In this document: in pieces, positions 1,545 to 48,096 of the stretch
Layout: each line of letters opens with the position of its first letter
Numbering within the stretch: position 1 is the first letter of the stretch
NCBI GenBank assembly: GCA_965262595.1
Contig: OZ253548.1
Location: 859,740-923,739 of the forward strand
Length of the DNA: 64,000 nt
Direction of reading: 5' to 3'
Source: Dehalococcoidia bacterium
GTDB taxonomy: Bacteria > Chloroflexota > Dehalococcoidia > Lucifugimonadales > UBA3495
Position numbers and translations under genes: made by a program
Notes under the pieces: model-generated
Database searches by the model: none
What the model saw: only the letters and a program-made list of their open reading frames with translations
Told to the model about the DNA's origin: nothing

Positions 1545-2894
1545 TTATGAAGGCTTTTCCCCGCTCTCGGCACTCAAATGTCGAGACCGATCGGCTCTCT
1601 GCCGACTAATTTCCCGGGACAATTGGTGTTGGGAAGCAACATTGGTCAGGCAAAGTATCGCTGCCCCTACCAGAATCGGCGCCAAGGCCGGTAGAAAGAT
1701 TCCCTCTAGCTGGCGCGCCAACTCCAACCTGAAGACATCCGAAGCCAAGCTAACTACTTCAGGAGGCAAGCCAAACTCAAGGGTCAAAATCAAGGCACCC
1801 TGGCGGCTCAGCAATCCCGGCAGAATAGCTTCTGCCAACCATCCGGCAGCCAGGGCCACCAAACCGGTCAGTAACAAGGCCAGTCCGGCATGGCGCAGGC
1901 AGCGTCTCCAATTGGGCAAATACAACGCCCCAATCGCAATAGTTCCCAAGGCCACGATACCAATGCTCCAGATTTGGCCTTGGGTGAATACGCGGTTGAC
2001 GTCCACCCGAAACCCTTCAATTTTCCCTCGCAACTCGGTTTCGGTGACTCCTTCAGACCACCAGGCAAACAGGGCTACAAGATCCAATCGGCCCGCGCCT
2101 TCCAATCCGGCTTCGATTTTCTTCGATTCGTAGCCGATGGGGATGTCGTCCAGGACCGGAACCGCCGCCGCCCGTACCGCCAGGCGCAGAAACTCCCGGG
2201 TGTCGCCGGCGAGTAATTGTTCCCGCAGCACCGGCTCGGCAGCCTGTAATCCGTGGAGGCTCCGGGGCTCGAGGGAGCGTTGCCCCTCCAAGCCAGCCAT
2301 TGCCAGGTCAAAGGCTTCCATGCGCAGAGATTCGGGAACGGCGCTTAAAGAAATTATCGAAATCGCCGACAAAGTCTCGTCGTGCCCCTGAGCCGCATCC
2401 AGTAATACGTTAAGAAATTCGGTTAGTTCGCGAGAATAGCCGGGCTGGTCAAAGTGACGGCTGCCAGGGCCCGGTTCCAACCCGACCAGTTGATCCATAA
2501 CATCGTTAATTTCAGCCGCATCGATCCGTCGGTCTATGGAATCCAGAAATGCCGACTCCAGATTGGCTAGCGGTTCCTCTCACTCCATATAGAGCTCCAA
2601 CCGATCGGTTTCCTGCGTAAAGTAGGCCGCAGACCTTTCGATGTTGCTCTCAACTTGACTCTGCAAGTATTCCGGTGGCATCAACTCTAGCAGCAAAGGA
2701 ACCGTATCTGCCAAATCCGCGAGGACGGCTAAAGGTGTTTCTTTCAACGGCTCCCGCACTAAAACTTCAGGGCCGTATTTTGGCAATACTTCGGAGTAGA
2801 GCCGTTGATAAGCGTTACCTTCCAGCAAGGCATCGGTATAGGTCTGGGGGTCAAAAAGCCGGTCGGAGAGGTTGTTGAGTACCAGATAAGACAA
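1545..2894 (-). CDS. membrane protein reading frame interrupted by one in-frame TGA (2582..2580); pseudogene, recoding or two genes
   Basis: Track ORFs 2580..2894 and 1545..2498 are in the same frame. The 27 codons between them are open (EEPLANLESAFLDSIDRRIDAAEINDV). The C-terminal part has several TM helices. A TM-like segment (FLLLFWTARSLAAFVLGLLILGAFL) lies in frame upstream of the TTG at 2894 but has no canonical start codon. Confidence 0.4.
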
Positions 2895-4062: not shown

Positions 4063-5061
4063 ATGGCAGATGGAACGGGAGTACTAGTCGTCGGTGAGGC
4101 GCAAGACGGCGAGCTGAGCCTCACTTCCAAAGAAATATTGGCGGCAGCTCGCAATGTTGCCGACGCCCTGGGGCAAGAACTGGCTATTGGTTTGTTCGGA
4201 GATACGCTGGAGGGCCAGGCGCAACAGGCTATTGTTCACGGAGCGGATAAAGTTTACTCCGTAACCCACCCGTCATTGGCCGGCTTCCAGGCAGAACTCT
4301 ACCTGTCCGCCATGGAAACCCTTTGTAAGGAAGTTAACCCCGGAATAATCCTGATCGGACGCACCGGCGAAGGACGTGAACTGGCTCCCCGGCTGGCATT
4401 TCGCCTGGGTGTCGGTCTGGCCCAGGACTGTCTTGAGGTTTCGGTGGATGCCGGCACCGGCAAGCTGTTGGCCAATCGTCCGGTGTACGGCGGCAACGCC
4501 GTGGCCGTGGTCAGCTGCAACTATTCTCCCCAAGTGGCCGCCGTTCGCCCCAAAGTTTACGAGCCTTTAGAACCGGACGCTTCACGAACCGGGGAAATAG
4601 TTTCCTTCCCGGTTGACCTGAATCCCTCCGAGGCCCGAAGCCGAGTAATAGAGGTGGTGAAGGAGGAGGCTGCGGGAGTCAAACTGGAGGACGCCAACAT
4701 TGTCGTGTCCGGAGGGCGCGGACTGGGCGGGCCGGAGCCGTTTCAGAACCTGGAGGAGCTGGCCAAGCTCCTTGGCGGAGCGGTGGGCGCTTCCCGGGCG
4801 GCGGTGGACTCCGGTTGGGTACCCGCCAGCTACCAGGTGGGCCTGACCGGAAAGACCATTACACCCGACTTGTACATCACGGTCGCGATTTCCGGAGCCA
4901 GCCAGCACATGGCCGGTTGCTCCGGTTCGAAGGCCATTGTTGCCATCAACAAGGACGCCGAAGCCAACATTTTCAAGGCGGCACGCTATGGCGTGGTTGG
5001 CGACTGGGATAAAGTGGTGGCCTCATTTACCGAAACGGTGCGGGAGTTAACCCAGGATTAG
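4063..5061 (+). CDS. etfA: electron transfer flavoprotein, alpha subunit
   Basis: The FAD-binding C-terminus is ...[47 protein letters not shown], and the gene sits immediately downstream of etfB. Confidence 0.9.
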
Positions 5062-6750: not shown

Positions 6751-8442
6751 TCACCCAAACAACTCCCCAATCTCCCGCTCCAACCGTTCCTCCGCTGTTT
6801 CCCCGGGCCGGACTTCTTCCCGCCGGCTCACCCCTGCCCGGCTGCTCAATAGAGCGTAAGATTCGGCAGTGCCATAATCTCGTGTATGCACCACCACGGG
6901 CATTGGTACGGCATGACCGAAAATCAGGGCTTGTTGCTTGGATTCCAACCGGGCTAACACGCCGCGCAGTTGTCGGCTTCCTGAAGCGCCCGACAACACG
7001 GCGTCAATATCCCGATCGTTATCCAGCAAACAAGTCAACCGAGTTCCCAATTGGCTCATCACCTCCTCATCTATGCCGCTGGGCCGCTGGTCGATGACCA
7101 TCAGTGTGACGTTATATTTTCGCAACTCGCGGGCGATGATTCCGAATATGGTTTGCGGAGCCACCGAGGGACTAAGGAACTTATGTGCCTCTTCAATTAC
7201 TATAATTAGCGGACGGGGTTCCTTGCCTCGGCCGCCCTCTGCCTCTTCTTTCAATTCAACGTACCGCTGGTGAATCCGGCGAGACAAAAGGTTGCTTACC
7301 AGGATGTATGCCGTCAGGTCGTTTCCGTACCGACCGAATTCAAGAACCACGTGCTGGCCCCTTTCCAGGTGTTCAATTATCTTTGCGGCGGTATTGTAGC
7401 GGTCGCCCTGTTTCAGAAATTCGTACCGGCGCAGGCGGCTCAGCCGGTTGTGCAGCGTCGCCAGGGCCGCCACGTTCACGTTCAGATCCCTGGCCAGCTC
7501 GTTAATATCCGGGGCTTCCAGGAACTGACCCATCCAGTTTCTTCCAAAGTGCTGCTGCAGATTATAGGCCGCAGCGGCGGCTACATCAGAGAGATTGAAT
7601 GTTTCCCGCAGCAGCTCCACATCTTCCGGCTCGATTTCCTCGTAACCGATTGTGGCAACCTCATCGGGAGATGAACCACGGCGGCGGGAACTCTCTTCAT
7701 CGAGAGTAAAAGTTGAAACCCGAGACGGAAACAATTGCTTCAAACCCTTAACCTGTAGGTTATGGTCGGTATCCTGACCGCTCCAGCCGTACTCACTGTG
7801 CATGTCAAAAACCAGGGACGACGCCGTTCCGCCCTGAAGAATGCCCACCAACAACAGGCGGGTCAAAAAGGTCTTGCCGGTGCCGCTTTTGCCGAACACG
7901 CCAATCGAGCGTTTCACCAGTTCGTCCAGATCCAGGCAGACTTTAGTATCCATATCCAGGGGACTGCCAATCCAGAAATGACGCTCGTCATCCTTGCCAA
8001 AAACCAGTTCCACGTCTCGAGCCGAAGCGGGATAGGCCGGTGAGAAATGGGAAGGAATGGTTTTGGCGGCTACCGGGCTTTCATCGCCGCCGGCCACCAA
8101 GGGCATGGTCAGATTGGGTAAGGCCGACACCGTACCGTAGGCCACCGGGCCGGAAATTATTTGGGACAGGAGCGGGTCAACTAAGTCCGGGGGACTATGC
8201 CTCAACCTGGGATCGGAACTGTTTAGCTGCAGGTCGGTAACGACACCAAAGAAGCGGTACTTGCGGCCTTGAATGGTCACGAAGGTACCCACTTTGACAT
8301 CTTCGATCAGCGTTTCCCCGGAGGGATCGAGGCGAATCTCCACACTCTGGCCCAGGGAACCCCCGACGACCAGACCGAAGGGCGGAGTTCCGGGAATAAA
8401 ACCGTCACTGGAGTTGCCGTTAGAGCCAAAACCGTCCGTCAT
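6751..8442 (-). CDS. HerA/FtsK-superfamily ATPase (DUF87-like) with an N-terminal HAS-barrel
   Basis: Walker A is GVFGKSGTGKTFL and Walker B is LIIVIEEAHKFL. Also present are LMVIDQRPSGIDEEVMSQLGT and an N-terminal barrel-like segment, GLVVGGSLGQSVEIRLD...VKVGTFVTIQGRKYRFFGVVTDL. Its ATG overlaps the TGA of the upstream gene (ATGA at 8439-8442), and GGAGGG lies 7 nt upstream. Confidence 0.75.
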   Translation of the reverse strand: MTDGFGSNGNSSDGFIPGTPPFGLVVGGSLGQSVEIRLDPSGETLIEDVKVGTFVTIQGRKYRFFGVVTDLQLNSSDPRLRHSPPDLVDPLLSQIISGPVAYGTVSALPNLTMPLVAGGDESPVAAKTIPSHFSPAYPASARDVELVFGKDDERHFWIGSPLDMDTKVCLDLDELVKRSIGVFGKSGTGKTFLTRLLLVGILQGGTASSLVFDMHSEYGWSGQDTDHNLQVKGLKQLFPSRVSTFTLDEESSRRRGSSPDEVATIGYEEIEPEDVELLRETFNLSDVAAAAAYNLQQHFGRNWMGQFLEAPDINELARDLNVNVAALATLHNRLSRLRRYEFLKQGDRYNTAAKIIEHLERGQHVVLEFGRYGNDLTAYILVSNLLSRRIHQRYVELKEEAEGGRGKEPRPLIIVIEEAHKFLSPSVAPQTIFGIIARELRKYNVTLMVIDQRPSGIDEEVMSQLGTRLTCLLDNDRDIDAVLSGASGSRQLRGVLARLESKQQALIFGHAVPMPVVVHTRDYGTAESYALLSSRAGVSRREEVRPGETAEERLEREIGELFG

Positions 8443-11280: not shown

Positions 11281-11493
11281 TGCTCCCGCCTCCAATGAAG
11301 GTTCGGTGCAGCGGCGATTGCAGCGGCAAAAGCGCAACAACGCCGGCATCTCTTTACAAGTAAGTGCGATGCTAAGTAAGCGTCGGACTGCACCATCCTA
11401 CGGGCGCCGACTGGTATAGGCAAGTGACCACACTGGCCGGCGGTCAATTGTGAATCCACATCCGGGCATGCCTGGGATTGGCAGGAAATTACC

Positions 11494-27229: not shown

Positions 27230-27812
27230 AAGTGGAGGGAACCAGGAAAACCTGTAAGCCGGGTTCTGTATCCCGCCGGCGTTGCCGCGCCGCCAAAAAG
27301 TATTGGCGGTGTGCACCGGACGGGCGGTGACCATCTATCTAGCCCCCAGGCGGTAGTCTTGAGGCTACCGTCCGGCCCAGCGCGCCAAAATGGCGCCGGA
27401 CAACGTTGCCGTCAGGGTCAAGCAGCCAACCCGGGGACGAGCCGGACGCCCATAGTCCCCCTATTCGGCCTTGCTCCAGGTGGGGTTTAGCCGTCGCTGT
27501 GTCACCACAGACGACCGGACGCTCTTACCGTCCGATTTCAACCTTACCGCCGGATTTACCCACTCCCGTTGTTCTGCTGAAAAGCGATCGGAAATGCCAT
27601 AGAGTTTTTAGACTTTTCGGCCATTGAGGGGAGCAATAGAACCCGGAGGCGGTATGTTTCTGTGCCACTATCCGTCCCCTGAGGCAACAGCTAAGTCGCC
27701 ACAGGAGCCTGGGCGTTACCCAGCACCCTGTCCAGTGGAGCCCGGACTTTCCTCCCCAAAGAGGTTGCCCCCAATGCGGCGGTCACCCGGTTCGCCTGGC
27801 CTCTCCAGCCGC
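27230..27812 (-). ncRNA. rnpB: RNase P RNA, bacterial type A, unusually long (ends approximate)
   Basis: The reverse complement contains GGAGGAAAGTCCGGGCTCC (27756..27738) and GGCTAAACCCCACCTGGAGCAAGGCCGAATAGGGGG (27492..27457). It also contains ACAGAACCCGGCTTA (27269..27255). A P1-like pairing joins GGAGAGGCCAGG (27806..27795) with CCTGGTTCCCTCC (27246..27234). Confidence 0.9.
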
Positions 27813-34639: not shown

Positions 34640-35905
34640 CTACAAATTGGGCAACACGTCGGTTAGCTTGGAAATGTCCTCCCAACGCCGGCCCCGTCCT
34701 TCCCGTCGGTCGCGGGAAGTGGTCATCATGTTAGCCGCTTCCCGGTAGAACCATTCGATCCGGTCCATTGCCTTTCCTTCACCAATGTTGGAAAGGATGG
34801 CGGTAACGCTGATGGTATCTGAGGTCCGACCGGGGTAAGTTCCCTTACGACGCCCGGCCCCGGGTACACGCTCAGCGAAGGTGTTATCCATCATCTCTAC
34901 AATCTCTGCGGTAGCCTCGTTGGGGGGGCCGCTGAAGAGGCCAAGAACGTGCTGGGCGTCGTAGAGTATTTTCCCCCTTTCGTCATAGTCGCAGTCCAGG
35001 GAAAGCTCGGCCAAAGCCTGGGTAACCACATTTTGGGCCCGCTCGATCTGGGCCTTGGACACGGAAAAGTGCTGCTGAACCCGATCGTGATTAGTGCGGA
35101 TGCGGCCAAACCAGGAACCCGATTTCCTGGTTTCAGGAATAGCGGCATGGCTGACGCCAATTACGGTTGGGCCCCGGAGGATACGGATAACGTCATTGGC
35201 ATCAAGAACTTCGCCAATATAGCGGCGCTCAGTTTCCTCGCCAACACACAGTATGTCCATGAAAGAATCAGCGATCTTCCGATTGATGGTAGCGTAGTTC
35301 AATCCCATCGCGTCTTGCTTGCGGGCGAACTTCTGGTTATCGACCAGGAACACCGCGTCGGCTTTGGAGTTATCGAGCACCTTCTTCAAACAGGTTGCCG
35401 TGTTTATGACGCTGTCCGGTTCGTCGTATTGGTTCTCGAACGGCAATACCAGCATCGCGTAAACCGGCTTTTTGAATTCATCCTTTAGCAGGTCAACGAT
35501 CACTCCCACCGAGCCGGAGCCGGTTCCGCCGGCGGTAGTGGCGATTACCAAAATGGCGTCGGCGGAGTAAACGTCCCCATGATCCCGGATAGTTGACGCA
35601 ATTTTGCGGGAATCGCGCCGGGCCTGTTCGGCGCCATCGGCGTTCACTTTTCCAGCGCCCCGGCCCCTAAATTCATCCGTTGAGCCCAGCAAAATTGTGT
35701 GGTCATCAGTCTGGGGTATATGCTGCAGCGCATAAAGGTCACCGGCGCCCAGATTAACCGCAAAAACGCCGCTGGAAATCGGGTCGGAATCCGAACCGGT
35801 GAACAGCCGCACCCGCCGGTTAGCCCAAACCCAATGACCCAGCGCAACAAATTCATCCGCAATGTTAGAACCACCTTGTCCAGTGCCTACAATAACGAGC
35901 TTCAT
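34640..35905 (-). CDS. tubulin/FtsZ-superfamily GTPase, CetZ-like
   Basis: MKLVIVGTGQGGSNIADEF is the T1 loop, and ILVIATTAGGTGSGSVGVIVDLLK is the tubulin signature (A/G)GGTGSG at aa 125-131. LVDNQKF and a second domain (VLDANDVIRILRG..., LFSGPPNE...RKGTYPG...VTAILSNI) are collinear with my recollection of Haloferax CetZ1. AAGGAG lies 6 nt upstream of the ATG. Confidence 0.75.
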   Translation of the reverse strand: MKLVIVGTGQGGSNIADEFVALGHWVWANRRVRLFTGSDSDPISSGVFAVNLGAGDLYALQHIPQTDDHTILLGSTDEFRGRGAGKVNADGAEQARRDSRKIASTIRDHGDVYSADAILVIATTAGGTGSGSVGVIVDLLKDEFKKPVYAMLVLPFENQYDEPDSVINTATCLKKVLDNSKADAVFLVDNQKFARKQDAMGLNYATINRKIADSFMDILCVGEETERRYIGEVLDANDVIRILRGPTVIGVSHAAIPETRKSGSWFGRIRTNHDRVQQHFSVSKAQIERAQNVVTQALAELSLDCDYDERGKILYDAQHVLGLFSGPPNEATAEIVEMMDNTFAERVPGAGRRKGTYPGRTSDTISVTAILSNIGEGKAMDRIEWFYREAANMMTTSRDRREGRGRRWEDISKLTDVLPNL

Positions 35906-39432: not shown

Positions 39433-40491
39433 CTAGCGAAACGCGGGCATAACTTCCTCAGCGAACAGGCCAATGGAACGCATCACTTGTTCGTGAGTAA
39501 GGTCTCCCCAGGCAAAGATCGAGCAAAAATAATTGATGCTGCTTTCTTCCACAGTTCGCTTGACCTGGTCGAGCACCGTCTTAGGCGATCCGGCAATCAC
39601 CACTTCCTTCTCCACCCACTCATCGAAGTCTATCGTGGCCGGAAGGGGCACATCGTGCTTGTCCCACAAGAAGTTAATGTTATGGAACCAGGTGGCAAAT
39701 GCCGCGCGGCAATCATTGATAGCCTCCGCATCGGTAGGGGCGACGTAAACGTGTCGAGTGAGGCCCAGTTTTGGCTCCGTTACGTGGCCGTTCAAACGGT
39801 TGGCATCCCCCAAGTGCTCTTGCCAGATCTGGCGGTAAAGGTCGAAATGGGGCTTCACTTCCGCCGCCGGGTCGAACACGCTGCTGGTATTGAATCCGTG
39901 CTGCGCAATCCAGGGCACCGATTCCCGATTGTTGGTGGCGTACCACAATGGGGGATAAGGCTTTTGCTGCGGTTCGGACCACAGGCGGATATCCTTGTAG
40001 TTGTAATGCTTGCCCTCGTAGTTAAGAGTATTTCGGCTCAGGCCCATGATAAGGACGTCCAGAGCCTCAAGGAATATTTCCCGGCTTTCCTCCAGCTTCA
40101 CATCATAATGTTCCGCTTCCATTGGGACGATTCCCCGACCCACTCCCAATTCAAGCCGGCCGTTGCTCAGGTTGTCCAGCATACATACTTCGTGGAGCAG
40201 GCGCAGCGGACTGTAGAAGGGCAATAGATAGACCAGGGGGCCGAGACGAATGTTCTTGGTCCGTTGTGCGGCGGCTGCCAGGAAAACCCCCGGCGAGGGA
40301 GCCAGGCTAAGGGGAGTTATGTGATGCTCGGCCAGATGGTAACAGTAGAAGCCGTTTTGGTCGGCATATTCCAGAAGTTTTAGGCGTTCCTCATATATCT
40401 GATTGTGGGGGAGCTTCTCCCATTCAATCCAGTCAAAGAGACCAAACTCCAGGGCATTGCCATTGGGCCGCGTGATTTGTGACGTACTCAT
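39433..40491 (-). CDS. LLM-class (luciferase-like) flavin-dependent oxidoreductase
   Basis: FDWIEWEK..., YHLAEHHITPLS and RLELGVGRG are typical of luciferase-like monooxygenases; 352 aa. Confidence 0.8.
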   Translation of the reverse strand: MSTSQITRPNGNALEFGLFDWIEWEKLPHNQIYEERLKLLEYADQNGFYCYHLAEHHITPLSLAPSPGVFLAAAAQRTKNIRLGPLVYLLPFYSPLRLLHEVCMLDNLSNGRLELGVGRGIVPMEAEHYDVKLEESREIFLEALDVLIMGLSRNTLNYEGKHYNYKDIRLWSEPQQKPYPPLWYATNNRESVPWIAQHGFNTSSVFDPAAEVKPHFDLYRQIWQEHLGDANRLNGHVTEPKLGLTRHVYVAPTDAEAINDCRAAFATWFHNINFLWDKHDVPLPATIDFDEWVEKEVVIAGSPKTVLDQVKRTVEESSINYFCSIFAWGDLTHEQVMRSIGLFAEEVMPAFR

Positions 40492-45301: not shown

Positions 45302-46321
45302 CTATTCCACGACCACTTGCTCATCCATCAGTACGCCACCCTCCCGGTAGGCAATCGAAATGGGGTCGCGCAACAGGGCGGCCTGTATTGCCTCGATGGG
45401 CATAGTACGGGGGCTGCCCGGAGCGACAATCCGGCGCACCGCGTTGCGGTTGGCTACCCGACCTTCGGCGGCATTGCCCTGAGCCTGGTTGCGCCCTCCC
45501 GTCACGTTCATGCCCACCTCCACCCTCAAATCTGAAGCATCCCCGACTCCCTCCAAGGGCAGCAGGCGGCTCAGGGTAGTCGCCGTGGAGGCGGCCCAGC
45601 CGGCCTGGGCGGTGGGGAATGGCGGCGGCACCCAACCATCGGAACTGTGGCCGGCCAGCAGTGTCCACCGGCTGGTATGGGTCAGGTTTTGGGTGGTGAC
45701 GTAAACCTTGGCCTCGCCCTCTTCCTGCATCCCCCCATTTTCGTCGTATTCCTTGGTGTCCAGCAGATAGCTGCCGTGCACCGTACCCGGCATTATCGTC
45801 GGGAGGTTGCCTTCCAAAGGCTGAAGACCCTCTGGGGCCGGAGAAGCGGCGGTTATTTCGCCGGACAACCACTGTACCTCATCTTCTACCACCATTGCGC
45901 CCTTGGTGAGGGCCTGCCCCACGGGACAGAAGCGGGCGGCGCGCTGTAGCCGGACTCGCTCCGTCTCGGAGAGATTACCCTTCAGTCTGACCACTTCCCG
46001 GACGCCAAAACCGATGGAACCGGCGCGCTCAATCGGCTCAACCTCGAAGTCAACTTCGATGTTTTCCAAGGGAATGCCACCACGGTAGGCGACGCCTACC
46101 ACCGTGACCACCGTTCAAGCAGCCCAGCCGGCCACCGCCAAGTACTGCGGCGGTGGGCCGCTAAGGTCCGAACTCAGGTTGGGAATGCCGGTTACGAAAG
46201 GCCAGGGGCCCCGGTTGCCGGCGCCAGCGCCAATCAGGGTAAGAACCGTGTCCTCGCCCACCGGACGGGAGATGATGCTTCGTTGGGGCTGGGAAGCGTT
46301 GGCATTATTAGCTTGAGTCAT
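45302..46321 (-). CDS. tandem OsmC/Ohr-like protein, predicted selenoprotein (UGA at 46117..46115 read as Sec)
   Basis: Track ORFs 46115..46321 and 45302..46111 share one frame and are separated only by TGA: ...PPPQYLAVAGWAA-U-TVVTVVGVAY.... The second Cys motif, AARFCPVGQAL, is retained. GGAGGGG lies 5-6 nt upstream of the ATG at 46321. The second half repeats the fold with GWAAST and LLRDPIS. Confidence 0.7.
46078..46106 (-). promoter_or_regulatory. candidate bacterial SECIS hairpin
   Basis: The mRNA CACGGUGGUAGGC-GUC-GCCUACCGUGGUG starts 9 nt after the UGA. It has 12 pairs (2 G-U) and 1 mismatch. The apical loop contains G and begins 21 nt after the UGA. Confidence 0.6.
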
Positions 46322-46391
46322 AAGGCCCCTCCGTTTAATGTATTGGGATTGAGTTCACTATAGTTGGGCAGCAGCAAAAGCGTCAACCGGA

Positions 46392-46814
46392 TTACTCTGC
46401 GTCCCGCGGCAACCGACAGGAGCCATTGGGACGGCAGGGTTTGAAACCGGAAAAGCGGGGACGCACTCGCCGAAACAGGGCATAGCCGACCATCCCTAAC
46501 TGCCGCAGGCCTGGAACCCGCGTCCAACCCCAAACCCAGCCCTGGCCGACGACATCCCACATTATAGGGAAGCTGTCCAGACCTTCGTGCAGGACACCTT
46601 CCTTGTCTTTGACATACATTCTGGCAACGAAGTCCGACAGCTCCAGGTCGTATTGGGCCGGGTCAAAGTCGGGACTGGCAATATCTGTGGTGCGAAGGCT
46701 CCCTTTCTTGTCCAGCCGCCGCAAAAGGCCAATTTCCTGCCGGCATACCGGACAGAGGCTATCGTAAAAAACCTCAACCAATGGCGTTTCCTCAGCGGTG
46801 TCTATACTCGCCAT
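46392..46814 (-). CDS. DCC-family thiol-disulfide oxidoreductase (DUF393)
   Basis: VFYDSLCPVCRQEIGLLRRLD matches the DxxCxxC motif of the DCC family; 140 aa. Confidence 0.7.
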   Translation of the reverse strand: MASIDTAEETPLVEVFYDSLCPVCRQEIGLLRRLDKKGSLRTTDIASPDFDPAQYDLELSDFVARMYVKDKEGVLHEGLDSFPIMWDVVGQGWVWGWTRVPGLRQLGMVGYALFRRVRPRFSGFKPCRPNGSCRLPRDAE

Positions 46815-46869: not shown

Positions 46870-48096
46870 TTAGGGAGCGACGTCAAACGGCCCGGGCAGT
46901 TCCAGTTCATCGCCAATTTCGCGAATGGCGGGCAGGACTTCCTGGTCCATCAACTGCAAACAGCGCATGGTTGCCTCGTGGGAGATGGAGCCGTCATTGG
47001 TCCAGACCGCGAGGATGCCGGGGCGCACAATTTCCAATACCTCTCGCACTTTGCGAATCACCGTGTCCGGGCTGCCGATAACCATGCGGTTGTCGTCGAT
47101 CATCGCCTGGAAGGTTTCGTCCGTCACCGGGCCGGTGCGGAAGGGGTCGCTGGCGCGGGTTTCCCGGACCTTGGCTTCCCGCGCGTCGTCAGCCCATTCG
47201 TCCCGGGTAGCCCGGTTATAACCGGGCGGGAAGGAATATTCCCGGGGCATCGGCACCCGGCCAACGCCGACCAAAGCCTCCAGGAAGCCGCGGCCGGCCT
47301 CTTTGGCCTTCTCGTCGGTATCCTGAACGTGGATCGGCAACATATAACCGAAGTTCTGCGGCCCGGCCTCATACCCCTGAATCCGGGCGGCGTCCCGGTA
47401 AATGTCCTGCATATAGCTAAAGGTATAGGGAACTATACCCAGATAGAAGTAGGGGTAGTGGTGCTCGGCGCACCAGGCTGCCGTTTCCGCGCTGCCGGTT
47501 CCCGGAATCCAGACGGGTGGATGGGGCTTTTGGAACGGCACCTGGAAGGGATTTACGTGCCGGAAGTGGTAATGCTTGCCTTCCCAGCGGAAGGGGCCAG
47601 GCGTGGTCCAGGTCTTGATGAGGAGGTCGTGAGCCTCTTCAAACCGCTCCCGGTTGTAAACCGGGTTGGTGTTGGTGGCCCAGCTCTCGGTGCCGCCGCC
47701 ACGCACAAAGCCGGAAACCAGGCGGCCCCGGGAGATACAGTCGATTTCCGCAAGCTCCTCGGCCAGCCTGAGGGGGTTTTCATGGATGGGCAGCGGGTTG
47801 CCCATCAGGACGATTTTGGGCTTCTTGGTGATACGGGCGAGGATGGCAGCCTCCAGGTTCATGGCCGCGCCCAGGCTGGTGGGAGTGCTGTGGTGCTCGT
47901 TGAGCATCATCCCATCAAAGCCCACTTCTTCGCAGTATTGCCACTCGTCCAGGTAGTAGTTGTACTGGTTGGCGGCCACTTCCGGGTCAAAATGGGAGTT
48001 GGAGAAGGTAACCCGGTGGGCGCCGCCGGGGCTGTTTTTAACGTCTTCCTCGGTATAGTTAAAGTAAGCGCGCTCGGTGAACCTCATTACGAACAT
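46870..48096 (-). CDS. LLM-class (luciferase-like) flavin-dependent oxidoreductase
   Basis: 408 aa. FDGMMLNEHHSTP and RLVSGFVRGGG are luciferase-like motifs. Confidence 0.8.
   Translation of the reverse strand: MFVMRFTERAYFNYTEEDVKNSPGGAHRVTFSNSHFDPEVAANQYNYYLDEWQYCEEVGFDGMMLNEHHSTPTSLGAAMNLEAAILARITKKPKIVLMGNPLPIHENPLRLAEELAEIDCISRGRLVSGFVRGGGTESWATNTNPVYNRERFEEAHDLLIKTWTTPGPFRWEGKHYHFRHVNPFQVPFQKPHPPVWIPGTGSAETAAWCAEHHYPYFYLGIVPYTFSYMQDIYRDAARIQGYEAGPQNFGYMLPIHVQDTDEKAKEAGRGFLEALVGVGRVPMPREYSFPPGYNRATRDEWADDAREAKVRETRASDPFRTGPVTDETFQAMIDDNRMVIGSPDTVIRKVREVLEIVRPGILAVWTNDGSISHEATMRCLQLMDQEVLPAIREIGDELELPGPFDVAP

What the first reader, a model, noticed from the sequence alone, without database searches (positions are those of the whole stretch)
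45302..46321. Tandem OsmC-like protein with UGA at the catalytic Cys position and a downstream SECIS-like hairpin
**Seen in the sequence**
- The track's 68-aa and 269-aa minus-strand ORFs are in the same frame and are separated by a single TGA (46117..46115).
- The joined sequence reads ...GPPPQYLAVAGWAA-[UGA]-TVVTVVGVAYRGG....
- In E. coli OsmC as I recall it, the corresponding stretch is NPEELIGAAHAACFSMALSLML. The UGA therefore replaces the first catalytic Cys.
- The second catalytic motif is retained: AKAGCPVSQVL in OsmC against AARFCPVGQAL here.
- Nine nt after the UGA begins the hairpin CACGGUGGUAGGC-GUC-GCCUACCGUGGUG, with 12 pairs and 1 mismatch.
- Its G-containing apical loop starts 21 nt from the UGA. 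That is within the 16-37 nt geometry used for bacterial SECIS prediction.
- The C-terminal half repeats the same fold (PPPFPTAQAGWAASTATTLSRLL and IQAALLRDPISIAY). Here Ser and Asp occupy the two redox positions, so it is a redox-dead duplicate.
- The next gene upstream (46392..46814) is a DCC-type CxxC oxidoreductase.

**Established knowledge**
- I recall OsmC-like selenoproteins being reported from marine metagenome selenoproteome surveys.
- I do not recall the fused Sec-active plus inactive tandem form.
Basis: partly seen in the sequence, partly recalled or inferred. Interest (0 to 1): 0.7.

Follow-up and report, generated by a model that had tools for sequence, protein, structure and literature searches.

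The report
Selenocysteine OsmC/Ohr-like tandem peroxidase gene
The two apparent genes are almost certainly one gene for a two-domain OsmC/Ohr-type peroxide-detoxifying enzyme whose catalytic cysteine is replaced by selenocysteine, encoded by a recoded UGA; the gene is widespread in marine SAR202/Dehalococcoidia bacteria and is routinely mis-annotated as a truncated protein.

Summary
On the minus strand, 46321..45302 is one 339-codon frame interrupted only by TGA at 46117..46115. A Pfam OsmC hit spans the TGA. The TGA aligns with the peroxidatic Cys of solved OsmC/Ohr structures, and Cys132 aligns with the resolving Cys.

The same codon is TGA in all 105 orthologous sequences examined: the window, 58 species-representative MAG loci, 45 metagenome loci and one further contig. 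The 32 upstream codons are under purifying selection. More distant full-length homologues with the same tandem architecture carry a real TGT or TGC Cys codon there.

An 8-bp hairpin with a G-U-N loop starts 21 nt after the UGA. It is 99.6% paired, shows compensatory changes and freezes synonymous sites. It is degraded in the two Cys forms checked.

The C-terminal half is a diverged OsmC/Ohr-fold repeat with Ser and Asp at the redox positions.

Three points need correcting:
- The DCC1 neighbour is present in only 5 of 58 genomes.
- The protein fails the curated model for the known OsmC selenoprotein family.

No Sec machinery could be examined in this genome. I rate it a new variant of a known kind.

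The parts
45302..46321 (-). Complete coding sequence: ATG 46321..46319, 339 sense codons including UGA at codon 69, stop TAG 45304..45302.
   Evidence: - Single frame confirmed.
- The Pfam OsmC hit spans the TGA.
- tblastn matches in 58 genomes cover residues 1-339 across the stop.
46326..46332 (-). Shine-Dalgarno-like GGAGGGG, 5 nt upstream of the ATG (the GGAGG core lies 7 nt upstream).
   Evidence: - Read directly from the sequence.
- No comparable motif precedes the internal GTG at 46111.
46115..46117 (-). In-frame UGA, codon 69: the proposed selenocysteine at the peroxidatic position.
   Evidence: - TGA in 60/60 loci, 44/44 metagenome loci and 3/3 divergent members.
- Context NNU-UGA-A in 104 of 105.
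- Aligns to the catalytic Cys of OsmC/Ohr.
- Cys (TGT/TGC) at this position in P0122 and P0127.
46083..46101 (-). Conserved SECIS-like stem-loop: 5' arm 46101..46094, loop GUC 46093..46091, 3' arm 46090..46083.
   Evidence: - 8 pairs, 99.6% of cells paired.
- 2 pairs show compensatory changes.
- No slid control approaches this.
- Synonymous third positions inside the stem are frozen (G 60/60, C 60/60, C 60/60, C 56/T 4), while those outside vary freely.
- Further compensations appear in L065 and L066.
46078..46106 (-). The lower part is specific to this sequence.
   Evidence: Across 60 sequences the lower pairs hold as follows:
- 22-42: 33/60
- 21-43: 20/60
- 19-45: 7/60
- 18-46: 26/60
- 20-44 (C-G): 60/60, the only invariant one
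45872..46267 (-). N-terminal OsmC/Ohr-fold domain (about residues 19-150) carrying Sec69 and Cys132.
   Evidence: - Pfam PF02566: 38.5 bits against a cut-off of 27.5, residues 54-142.
- In the AlphaFold model of homologue P0003, a helix runs through the Sec position.
- Foldseek hits are all Ohr/OsmC.
45926..45928 (-). Cys132 codon (FCPVGQ): the proposed resolving cysteine.
   Evidence: - Aligns to the second conserved Cys of OsmC/Ohr.
- Cys in 59 of 59 scored orthologues and invariant in alignments A1 and A4.
45305..45814 (-). C-terminal diverged OsmC/Ohr-like repeat (about residues 170-339). Ser245 (45589..45587) and Asp319 (45367..45365) occupy the two redox positions.
   Evidence: - hhalign N half vs C half: probability 70.6%, E = 3.9e-5.
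- Same order of secondary-structure elements as the N half.
- Foldseek on the C half alone: top 16 hits are Ohr/OsmC, but weak (E = 0.03-0.3, model pLDDT 61).
- The Ser is nearly invariant and the Asp invariant.
46392..46814 (-). DCC1-like thiol-disulfide oxidoreductase gene. This is context only, not a conserved partner.
   Evidence: - PF04134, E = 2.4e-18.
- Found upstream of the orthologue in only 5 of 58 genome loci.

Best explanation
**Gene.** 46321..45302 (minus strand) is a single gene for a 339-residue selenoprotein.

**Translation (inferred from comparative evidence).**
- Translation starts at the ATG behind a GGAGG ribosome-binding site.
- At codon 69 the UGA is read as selenocysteine, because an 8-bp hairpin with a G-U-N apical loop lies in the mRNA 13-32 nt downstream.
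- That hairpin is the bacterial SECIS type of signal, bound by SelB carrying Sec-tRNA(Sec).

**Protein architecture (inferred from profile comparison and structure prediction).**
- The product is a single-chain pseudo-dimer of two OsmC/Ohr-fold halves.
- The N half keeps the two redox residues: Sec69 in place of the peroxidatic Cys, and Cys132 as the resolving Cys.
- The C half has Ser245 and Asp319 at those positions. It probably serves only as the structural partner that a second subunit provides in OsmC/Ohr homodimers.

**Chemistry (inferred from family knowledge, not shown).**
- The selenolate of Sec69 reduces an organic or lipid hydroperoxide and becomes a selenenic acid.
- Cys132 condenses with it to form a selenenylsulfide.
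- An unidentified thiol reductant regenerates the enzyme.

**Annotation consequence.** Gene callers stop at the UGA. Databases therefore hold a roughly 266-aa fragment that lacks the catalytic residue.
For: **Recoded UGA**
- One frame, with the Pfam OsmC hit spanning the TGA.
- TGA at the homologous codon in all 105 orthologous sequences, at 37-98% protein identity.
- The upstream ORF stays open for about 61-69 codons.
- The 32 codons upstream of the TGA are under purifying selection: pS 0.64 against pN 0.165.
- 119 of the 120 listed database homologues are about 250-280 aa and begin just after the TGA. The one full-length call reads the TGA as Trp.

**Cys homologues**
- Full-length tandem homologues have Cys at this codon: P0122, P0127, P0129, P0139, P0130 and P0152.
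- P0122 and P0127 were checked at DNA level: the codons are TGT and TGC, and the genes translate exactly to the called proteins.

**Catalytic position**
- The residue aligns with the peroxidatic Cys of OsmC/Ohr, and Cys132 aligns with the resolving Cys.

**SECIS hairpin**
- 8 bp, 99.6% of cells paired.
- Compensatory changes A-U to C-G or G-C, and G-C to A-U, that even cost Tyr to Asp or His at the protein level.
- Synonymous sites are frozen only inside the stem.
- Only 5 of 8 pairs survive in the two Cys forms examined.

**UGA is otherwise a stop**
- Pfam-complete genes in the window end in TGA.

**Sec use in the lineage**
- A rhodanese gene with TGA at its catalytic Cys and its own hairpin lies close to the orthologue in 5 loci: about 100 nt downstream in four, several kb upstream in L026.
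- BSepDB lists two Dehalococcoidia MAGs among the ten most selenoprotein-rich bacteria (PMC13326102).

**Tandem fold**
-.
Against: - No selA, selB, selD or tRNA-Sec was found in the 64-kb window or in about 1.2 Mb of flanks of orthologous loci. The rest of this genome could not be read.
- The sel protein queries were E. coli sequences written from memory.
- No Rfam family matches the hairpin.
- The apical loop is only 3 nt, and its G and U are also fixed by a Val codon.
- The structure models are of moderate confidence (pLDDT 63 and 61), so the pseudo-dimer geometry is not established.
- The Ohr catalytic Glu aligns with Gln in most members.
- No reductant partner is conserved in the neighbourhood.
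Confidence: 0.88

Rival explanations
1. The UGA is recoded, but to an amino acid other than Sec. One route would be Cys inserted by a tRNA-Sec-like tRNA with a SelB paralogue. Another would be Trp by near-cognate read-through stimulated by the hairpin.
For: - The sequence evidence (conserved UGA, hairpin, Cys in homologues) does not by itself say which residue is inserted.
- No Sec machinery was seen in the DNA that could be read.
- That such Cys-recoding systems have been proposed is my own recollection. The paper I checked (PMC5424206) does not describe one.
Against: - The geometry matches the SelB/SECIS rule: loop G 21 nt from the UGA, stem directly downstream.
- The position is the peroxidatic residue, where Sec is the usual replacement.
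- Dehalococcoidia MAGs with the Sec pathway and 46-49 selenoproteins are on record.
- A plain Cys codon would serve if Cys were wanted, and the Cys forms lack the hairpin.
Confidence: 0.05
2. The UGA is a true stop. A 68-aa peptide and a separately initiated roughly 266-aa protein (GTG two or five codons after the stop) are made, as current annotations imply. The hairpin would then serve termination-reinitiation coupling.
For: - GTG codons follow the TGA, and gene callers start there.
- Short ORFs ending at the TGA are also called as separate proteins (hits covering query residues 1-61).
Against: - The OsmC domain and a predicted helix run straight through the stop.
- Both fragments would lack the catalytic residue.
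- Homologues are uninterrupted, with Cys at exactly that codon.
- No ribosome-binding motif precedes the internal GTG.
Confidence: 0.04
3. The TGA is a sequencing or assembly error, or a recent nonsense mutation, so the gene is a pseudogene.
For: - Two of the 58 genome copies are disrupted further downstream (L052 and L059).
- This shows that errors or decay do occur in these assemblies.
Against: - The identical TGA is present in 105 independent assemblies that are saturated at synonymous sites (pS 0.64).
- Purifying selection acts on both sides of the TGA.
Confidence: 0.01

Closest known systems
OsmC-like selenoproteins from marine metagenomes: Sargasso Sea and GOS surveys (PMC1088965, PMC2398784), curated as NCBIfam NF041052 'OsmC-related (seleno)protein'
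   Same: - OsmC superfamily (PF02566).
- Sec replaces a redox Cys.
- Marine bacterial origin.
- Bacterial SECIS directly downstream of the UGA.
   Different: - Those are described as COG1765/YhfA-type proteins with a UxxT motif, and the curated profile is 144 positions long.
- This protein scores 15.6 bits against a cut-off of 95.
- Its motif is U-T-V-V-T.
- It is 339 aa long, with a second, redox-dead OsmC-like half.
Ohr and OsmC two-cysteine hydroperoxide reductases (for example E. coli OsmC 1qwi, Xylella Ohr 1zb8, B. subtilis OhrB 2bjo)
   Same: - Same fold by Foldseek.
- The peroxidatic and resolving positions align.
- The likely chemistry is the same.
   Different: - Those are roughly 140-aa homodimers with two identical active sites and Cys at both positions.
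- Here two halves sit in one chain, with one active site, Sec at the peroxidatic position, and Gln in most members where Ohr has its catalytic Glu.
- The Ohr model TIGR03561 scores only 19.9 bits against a cut-off of 88.85.
Cys-containing tandem homologues found here (P0122, P0127, P0129, P0139, P0130, P0152)
   Same: - Same two-half architecture.
- Same Ser and Asp in the second half.
- 35-49% identity to the full-length Sec-form homologue P0003.
   Different: - They have a Cys codon (TGT or TGC) where this gene has UGA.
- The hairpin is not maintained.
- Their gene neighbourhoods differ.

Membership tests
Bacterial selenoprotein gene (UGA recoded via SECIS/SelB) | In-frame UGA conserved among orthologues, with protein-level conservation on both sides | tested here: met
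   - TGA in all 105 orthologous sequences.
- Upstream 32 codons: pN/pS 0.26. Downstream codons +13 to +28: 0.23.
Bacterial selenoprotein gene (UGA recoded via SECIS/SelB) | Homologues with Cys aligned to the UGA | tested here: met
   - Six full-length homologues have Cys at this position.
- TGT and TGC were verified in L060 and L064.
   - The loop G starts 21 nt after the UGA.
- 8-bp stem, 99.6% paired, with covariation.
- Frozen synonymous sites.
- No Rfam model matched.
Bacterial selenoprotein gene (UGA recoded via SECIS/SelB) | selA, selB, selD and tRNA-Sec in the same genome | not testable with these tools
   - None found in the window or in the flanks of about 100 orthologous loci.
- Indirect support:
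  - Sec-pathway-positive Dehalococcoidia MAGs are on record.
  - A second TGA-containing (rhodanese) gene lies close to the orthologue in 5 loci.
Bacterial selenoprotein gene (UGA recoded via SECIS/SelB) | Selenium demonstrated in the protein | not testable with these tools
   This needs 75Se labelling or mass spectrometry.
OsmC/Ohr superfamily (Pfam PF02566) | Profile match above the curated threshold | tested here: met
   38.5 bits against a cut-off of 27.5, residues 54-142, with U entered as C.
OsmC/Ohr superfamily (Pfam PF02566) | Two conserved redox Cys positions (peroxidatic and resolving) | tested here: met
   - Sec69 and Cys132 align to them in 9wo1, 2bjo, 6ecy and 1zb8.
- The second half has Ser and Asp at these positions.
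OsmC/Ohr superfamily (Pfam PF02566) | OsmC/Ohr fold | tested here: met
   - Foldseek on the model of P0003: top 50 hits are all Ohr/OsmC, best E = 1.5e-4, TM on the target about 0.55.
- The model is only moderately confident (pLDDT 63).
Ohr subfamily (TIGR03561) | Score above the curated cut-off, and the catalytic Glu | tested here: not met
   - 19.9 bits against a cut-off of 88.85.
- In the alignment to 1zb8, the E of the Ohr NPEQL motif falls on Gln59.
- That this E is the Ohr catalytic Glu is from my own knowledge.
Known OsmC-related selenoprotein family (NCBIfam NF041052; 'OsmC-like, UxxT' of the Sargasso/GOS surveys) | Score above the curated cut-off, and the UxxT motif | tested here: not met
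   - 15.6 bits against a cut-off of 95, with only profile positions 38-80 matched.
- The motif here is U-T-V-V-T.
Functional pairing with the DCC1-like oxidoreductase | Conserved adjacency | tested here: not met
   - DCC1 is upstream in 5 of 58 genome loci.
- The commonest neighbour is a 770-aa amidase-like gene downstream, in 22 of 58.

The most novel reading that the evidence does not exclude
This is a separate selenoprotein lineage, not captured by curated models: an independent Cys-to-Sec replacement within the OsmC/Ohr superfamily.

- It arose in a single-chain pseudo-dimer that keeps one active site and one dead site.
- It is fixed across at least about 60 species-level lineages of SAR202-type Dehalococcoidia, a major deep-ocean bacterial group.
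- It is truncated in essentially every database entry.
- Together with the adjacent TGA-containing rhodanese in some members, it would point to an under-counted selenoproteome in this group.
Probability: 0.55. Interest if true: 0.5.

Novelty: new variant of a known kind. Interest (0 to 1): 0.42.

Why it matters
- **Annotation.**
  - Of the 120 best database homologues listed, 119 are fragments that start just after the UGA and lack the catalytic residue.
  - The one full-length call reads the UGA as Trp.
  - Functional and abundance surveys of SAR202 therefore miss or mislabel this enzyme.
- **Selenium biology.**
  - It adds a second, separately evolved Sec-containing branch to the OsmC/Ohr superfamily.
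  - Sec and Cys forms share the same architecture, which makes a natural pair for studying why Sec is selected.
- **Enzyme design.** A fused OsmC/Ohr pseudo-dimer with one live and one dead site is a clear case of subunit fusion followed by loss of one active site.
- **Ecology.** It suggests that selenium-dependent hydroperoxide defence is routine in a bacterial group known for oxidative attack on recalcitrant organic matter.

Tried and rejected
- **Rfam.** The gathering search on the whole window and a permissive search on 45900..46350 gave no SECIS family match.
- **Sec machinery.** Nothing was found, so nothing can be concluded for the genome.
  - ARAGORN on the window and 58 genome loci, and later on all loci then held.
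  - Pfam on 20 long window ORFs.
  - tblastn with E. coli SelA, SelB and SelD written from memory.
- **DCC1 as redox partner.** Rejected: it is present in 5 of 58 loci.
The lower four pairs are not conserved.
- **A second selenoprotein in the window.**
  - The only other good in-frame TGA joins two ORFs of a membrane protein (2582..2580, minus strand).
  - It has no redox motif and no Pfam hit.
  - Same-frame neighbours by chance is the likelier reading, and I did not pursue it.
  - MAFFT misplaced the 68-aa ORF, so I dropped it from the alignment used for structure prediction.
- **Cys-recoding rival.** PMC5424206 was checked for a UGA-to-Cys recoding system in Dehalococcoidia and does not describe one.
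- **Literature on a fused OsmC pseudo-dimer.** No hits.

Full report
**1. The observation**

On the minus strand, the 68-aa ORF (46321..46115) and the 269-aa ORF (46111..45302) share a frame. They are separated only by TGA at 46117..46115. The ATG at 46321 is preceded by GGAGGGG at 46332..46326.

With the stop entered as Cys, Pfam OsmC (PF02566) matches residues 54-142 at 38.5 bits against a cut-off of 27.5. The match runs across codon 69.

Its loop starts 21 nt after the UGA. On one sequence alone its stability is unremarkable (z = -1.2).

The gene upstream (46814..46392) is DCC1-like.

**2. Is the UGA real and recoded?**

A protein search returned 224 relatives. Of the 120 listed, 119 are about 250-280 aa and begin a few residues after the stop. 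The single full-length entry (P0003, JGI) shows Trp at the position, but its DNA has TGA.

A scan of one genome per GTDB species gave 58 loci, all Dehalococcoidia, SAR202 or Chloroflexota MAGs. The tblastn matches run through the stop.

The homologous codon is TGA wherever I looked:
- the window, the 58 genome loci and the JGI contig: 60 of 60;
- a metagenome scan: 44 of 44 further loci;
- three divergent members at 37-40% identity: 3 of 3.

A final pattern count over all loci held found 105 orthologues with the TGA. The flanking context is NNU-UGA-A in 104 of them.

The frame upstream stays open for about 61-69 codons in nearly all loci. The 32 upstream codons have pS 0.64 and pN 0.165. That pattern is protein-coding purifying selection at near-saturated synonymous divergence.

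TGA is otherwise an ordinary stop in this genome, because Pfam-complete genes end in it. Sequencing error, a pseudogene and a reassigned genetic code are therefore excluded.

**3. Cys homologues**

An exhaustive HMMER search with P0003 found full-length tandem relatives at 35-49% identity that have Cys at this codon. They are P0122, P0127, P0129, P0139, P0130 and P0152.

For P0122 and P0127 the contigs translate exactly to the called proteins. The codons are TGT and TGC.

The same search lists short proteins that end at query residue 61. These look like the upstream ORFs called on their own.

**4. The RNA signal**

I aligned 57 distinct 60-nt stretches around the TGA without gaps.

- **Pairing.**
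  - An 8-bp stem (window 46101..46094 with 46090..46083) around a G-U-N triloop is paired in 99.6% of cells.
  - The same structure slid by 1-3 columns gives 19-64%.
- **Compensatory changes.**
  - Two pairs change on both sides.
  - A-U becomes C-G in L040 and G-C in L043, L045, L048 and L050.
  - G-C becomes A-U in L045 and L048.
  - These changes cost Tyr to Asp or His in the protein.
  - Divergent members add U-A to C-G and U-G to C-G.
- **Synonymous sites.**
  - Third codon positions inside the stem are frozen: G 60/60, C 60/60, C 60/60, C 56/T 4.
  - Those just outside the stem, and those of other invariant Gly and Ala codons in the same gene, use three or four bases.
- **Cys forms.** In the two Cys forms only 5 of 8 pairs can form.
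- **Rfam.** Nothing matches. This is not surprising for bacterial SECIS elements.

**5. The protein**

phmmer against PDB sequences aligns codon 69 to the first conserved Cys and Cys132 to the second. The matched structures are OsmC 9wo1 and Ohr 2bjo, 6ecy and 1zb8.

The AlphaFold model of P0003 has pLDDT 63 and pTM 0.67. Both halves show the same order of elements (two strands, a long helix, two strands, two helices, a strand), and the long helix of the first half passes through the Sec position. Foldseek returns only Ohr/OsmC structures.

For the internal repeat:
- A profile comparison of the N half against the C half gives probability 70.6% and E = 3.9e-5.
- It aligns WAA-U-TVVT with WAA-S-TATT, and CPVGQA with DPISxA.
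- The C half modelled alone (pLDDT 61) again finds Ohr/OsmC as its top 16 hits, weakly.
- The Ser is nearly invariant and the Asp invariant.

The 'redox-dead duplicate' reading is therefore supported. The pseudo-dimer geometry remains an inference.

**6. Relation to known families**

OsmC-like selenoproteins were reported from the Sargasso Sea (3 sequences, COG1765, motif UxxT; PMC1088965) and from GOS (5 sequences; PMC2398784). Recent reviews still list them.

NCBIfam has a model for that family, NF041052. This protein scores 15.6 bits against a cut-off of 95. It also falls far below the Ohr model (19.9 against 88.85). It is therefore an OsmC-superfamily selenoprotein, but not a member of the curated OsmC selenoprotein family.

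I found no paper on a fused OsmC pseudo-dimer. The three papers that mention both SAR202 and selenocysteine do not describe SAR202 selenoproteins. Whether BSepDB already holds the family could not be checked.

**7. Sec machinery**

None of selA, selB, selD or tRNA-Sec is in the window or in the flanks of the roughly 100 loci. The rest of the genome was out of reach.

Indirect support comes from two sources:
- BSepDB, which only scores genomes that have the Sec pathway, lists Dehalococcoidia UBA1141 (49 selenoprotein genes) and a UUID-named Dehalococcoidia MAG (46) among the ten richest bacteria (PMC13326102).
- In five loci a rhodanese gene (PF00581) with TGA at its catalytic Cys and its own 9-bp hairpin lies close to the orthologue. 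It is about 100 nt downstream in four loci and several kb upstream in L026.

**8. Context**

The DCC1-like neighbour accompanies the gene in only 5 of 58 genomes. A 770-aa amidase-like gene follows it in 22 of 58. No reductant partner can be inferred from the neighbourhood.

**9. Verdict**

This is very probably (0.88) a genuine selenocysteine-containing OsmC/Ohr-like hydroperoxide reductase in a tandem, half-dead architecture. It is conserved across SAR202-type Dehalococcoidia and systematically truncated in databases.

It is a new variant of a known kind and of moderate interest. The missing test is the presence of Sec machinery in the same genomes.

Noticed in passing
L040 7071..7463 (TGA at 7338); L097 and L099 (TGA at 11338); L101 (TGA at 4134); L026 (TGA at 471): A 130-aa rhodanese-domain gene (PF00581, E = 4e-15) has an in-frame TGA at the catalytic Cys position (QVIVT-U-GGGQ) and a 9-bp hairpin about 20 nt downstream. 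In four loci it lies about 100 nt downstream of the OsmC-Sec orthologue. It scores below the cut-off of the curated rhodanese selenoprotein model NF041203 (22 bits against 115). It is a likely second selenoprotein in this clade.
   Followed up: partly
window 2582..2580 (minus strand), joining ORFs 2894..2583 and 2498..1545: A second in-frame TGA has good coding scores on both sides. The joined product looks like a membrane protein, with no Pfam hit and no redox motif. The upstream ORF also lacks an obvious start codon for its first transmembrane segment. Probably two same-frame neighbours or a damaged gene.
   Followed up: partly
window 34640..35905 (minus strand): A tubulin/FtsZ-family GTPase has a CetZ-type C-terminal domain (PF00091 plus PF21011). 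CetZ is usually regarded as archaeal, so its presence in a Dehalococcoidia-like genome is unusual.
   Followed up: no
window 27239..27798 (minus strand): The bacterial RNase P RNA (class A) match spans 560 nt for a 367-position model, which implies large insertions.
   Followed up: no
window 46120..46114 and the same site in all loci: The codon before the UGA is GCU in 102 of 105 sequences, while the preceding Ala codon varies freely. The base after the UGA is always A. This may be a context requirement for recoding.
   Followed up: partly
L052 and L059: Two chromosome-level MAGs carry copies that break off 199 and 66 codons after the UGA. This could be a frameshift, a rearrangement or an assembly error.
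   Followed up: no
P0013 (homologue at 76% identity): This homologue has Cys instead of Ser at the 'dead' peroxidatic position of the second half (WAACTAST).
   Followed up: no
window, whole: TGA is the rarest stop codon: about 9 of 57 long ORFs end in it, and TAG is the commonest. The window also holds luciferase-like monooxygenase genes (39433..40491 and 46870..48096), a gene family I recall as expanded in SAR202.
   Followed up: no
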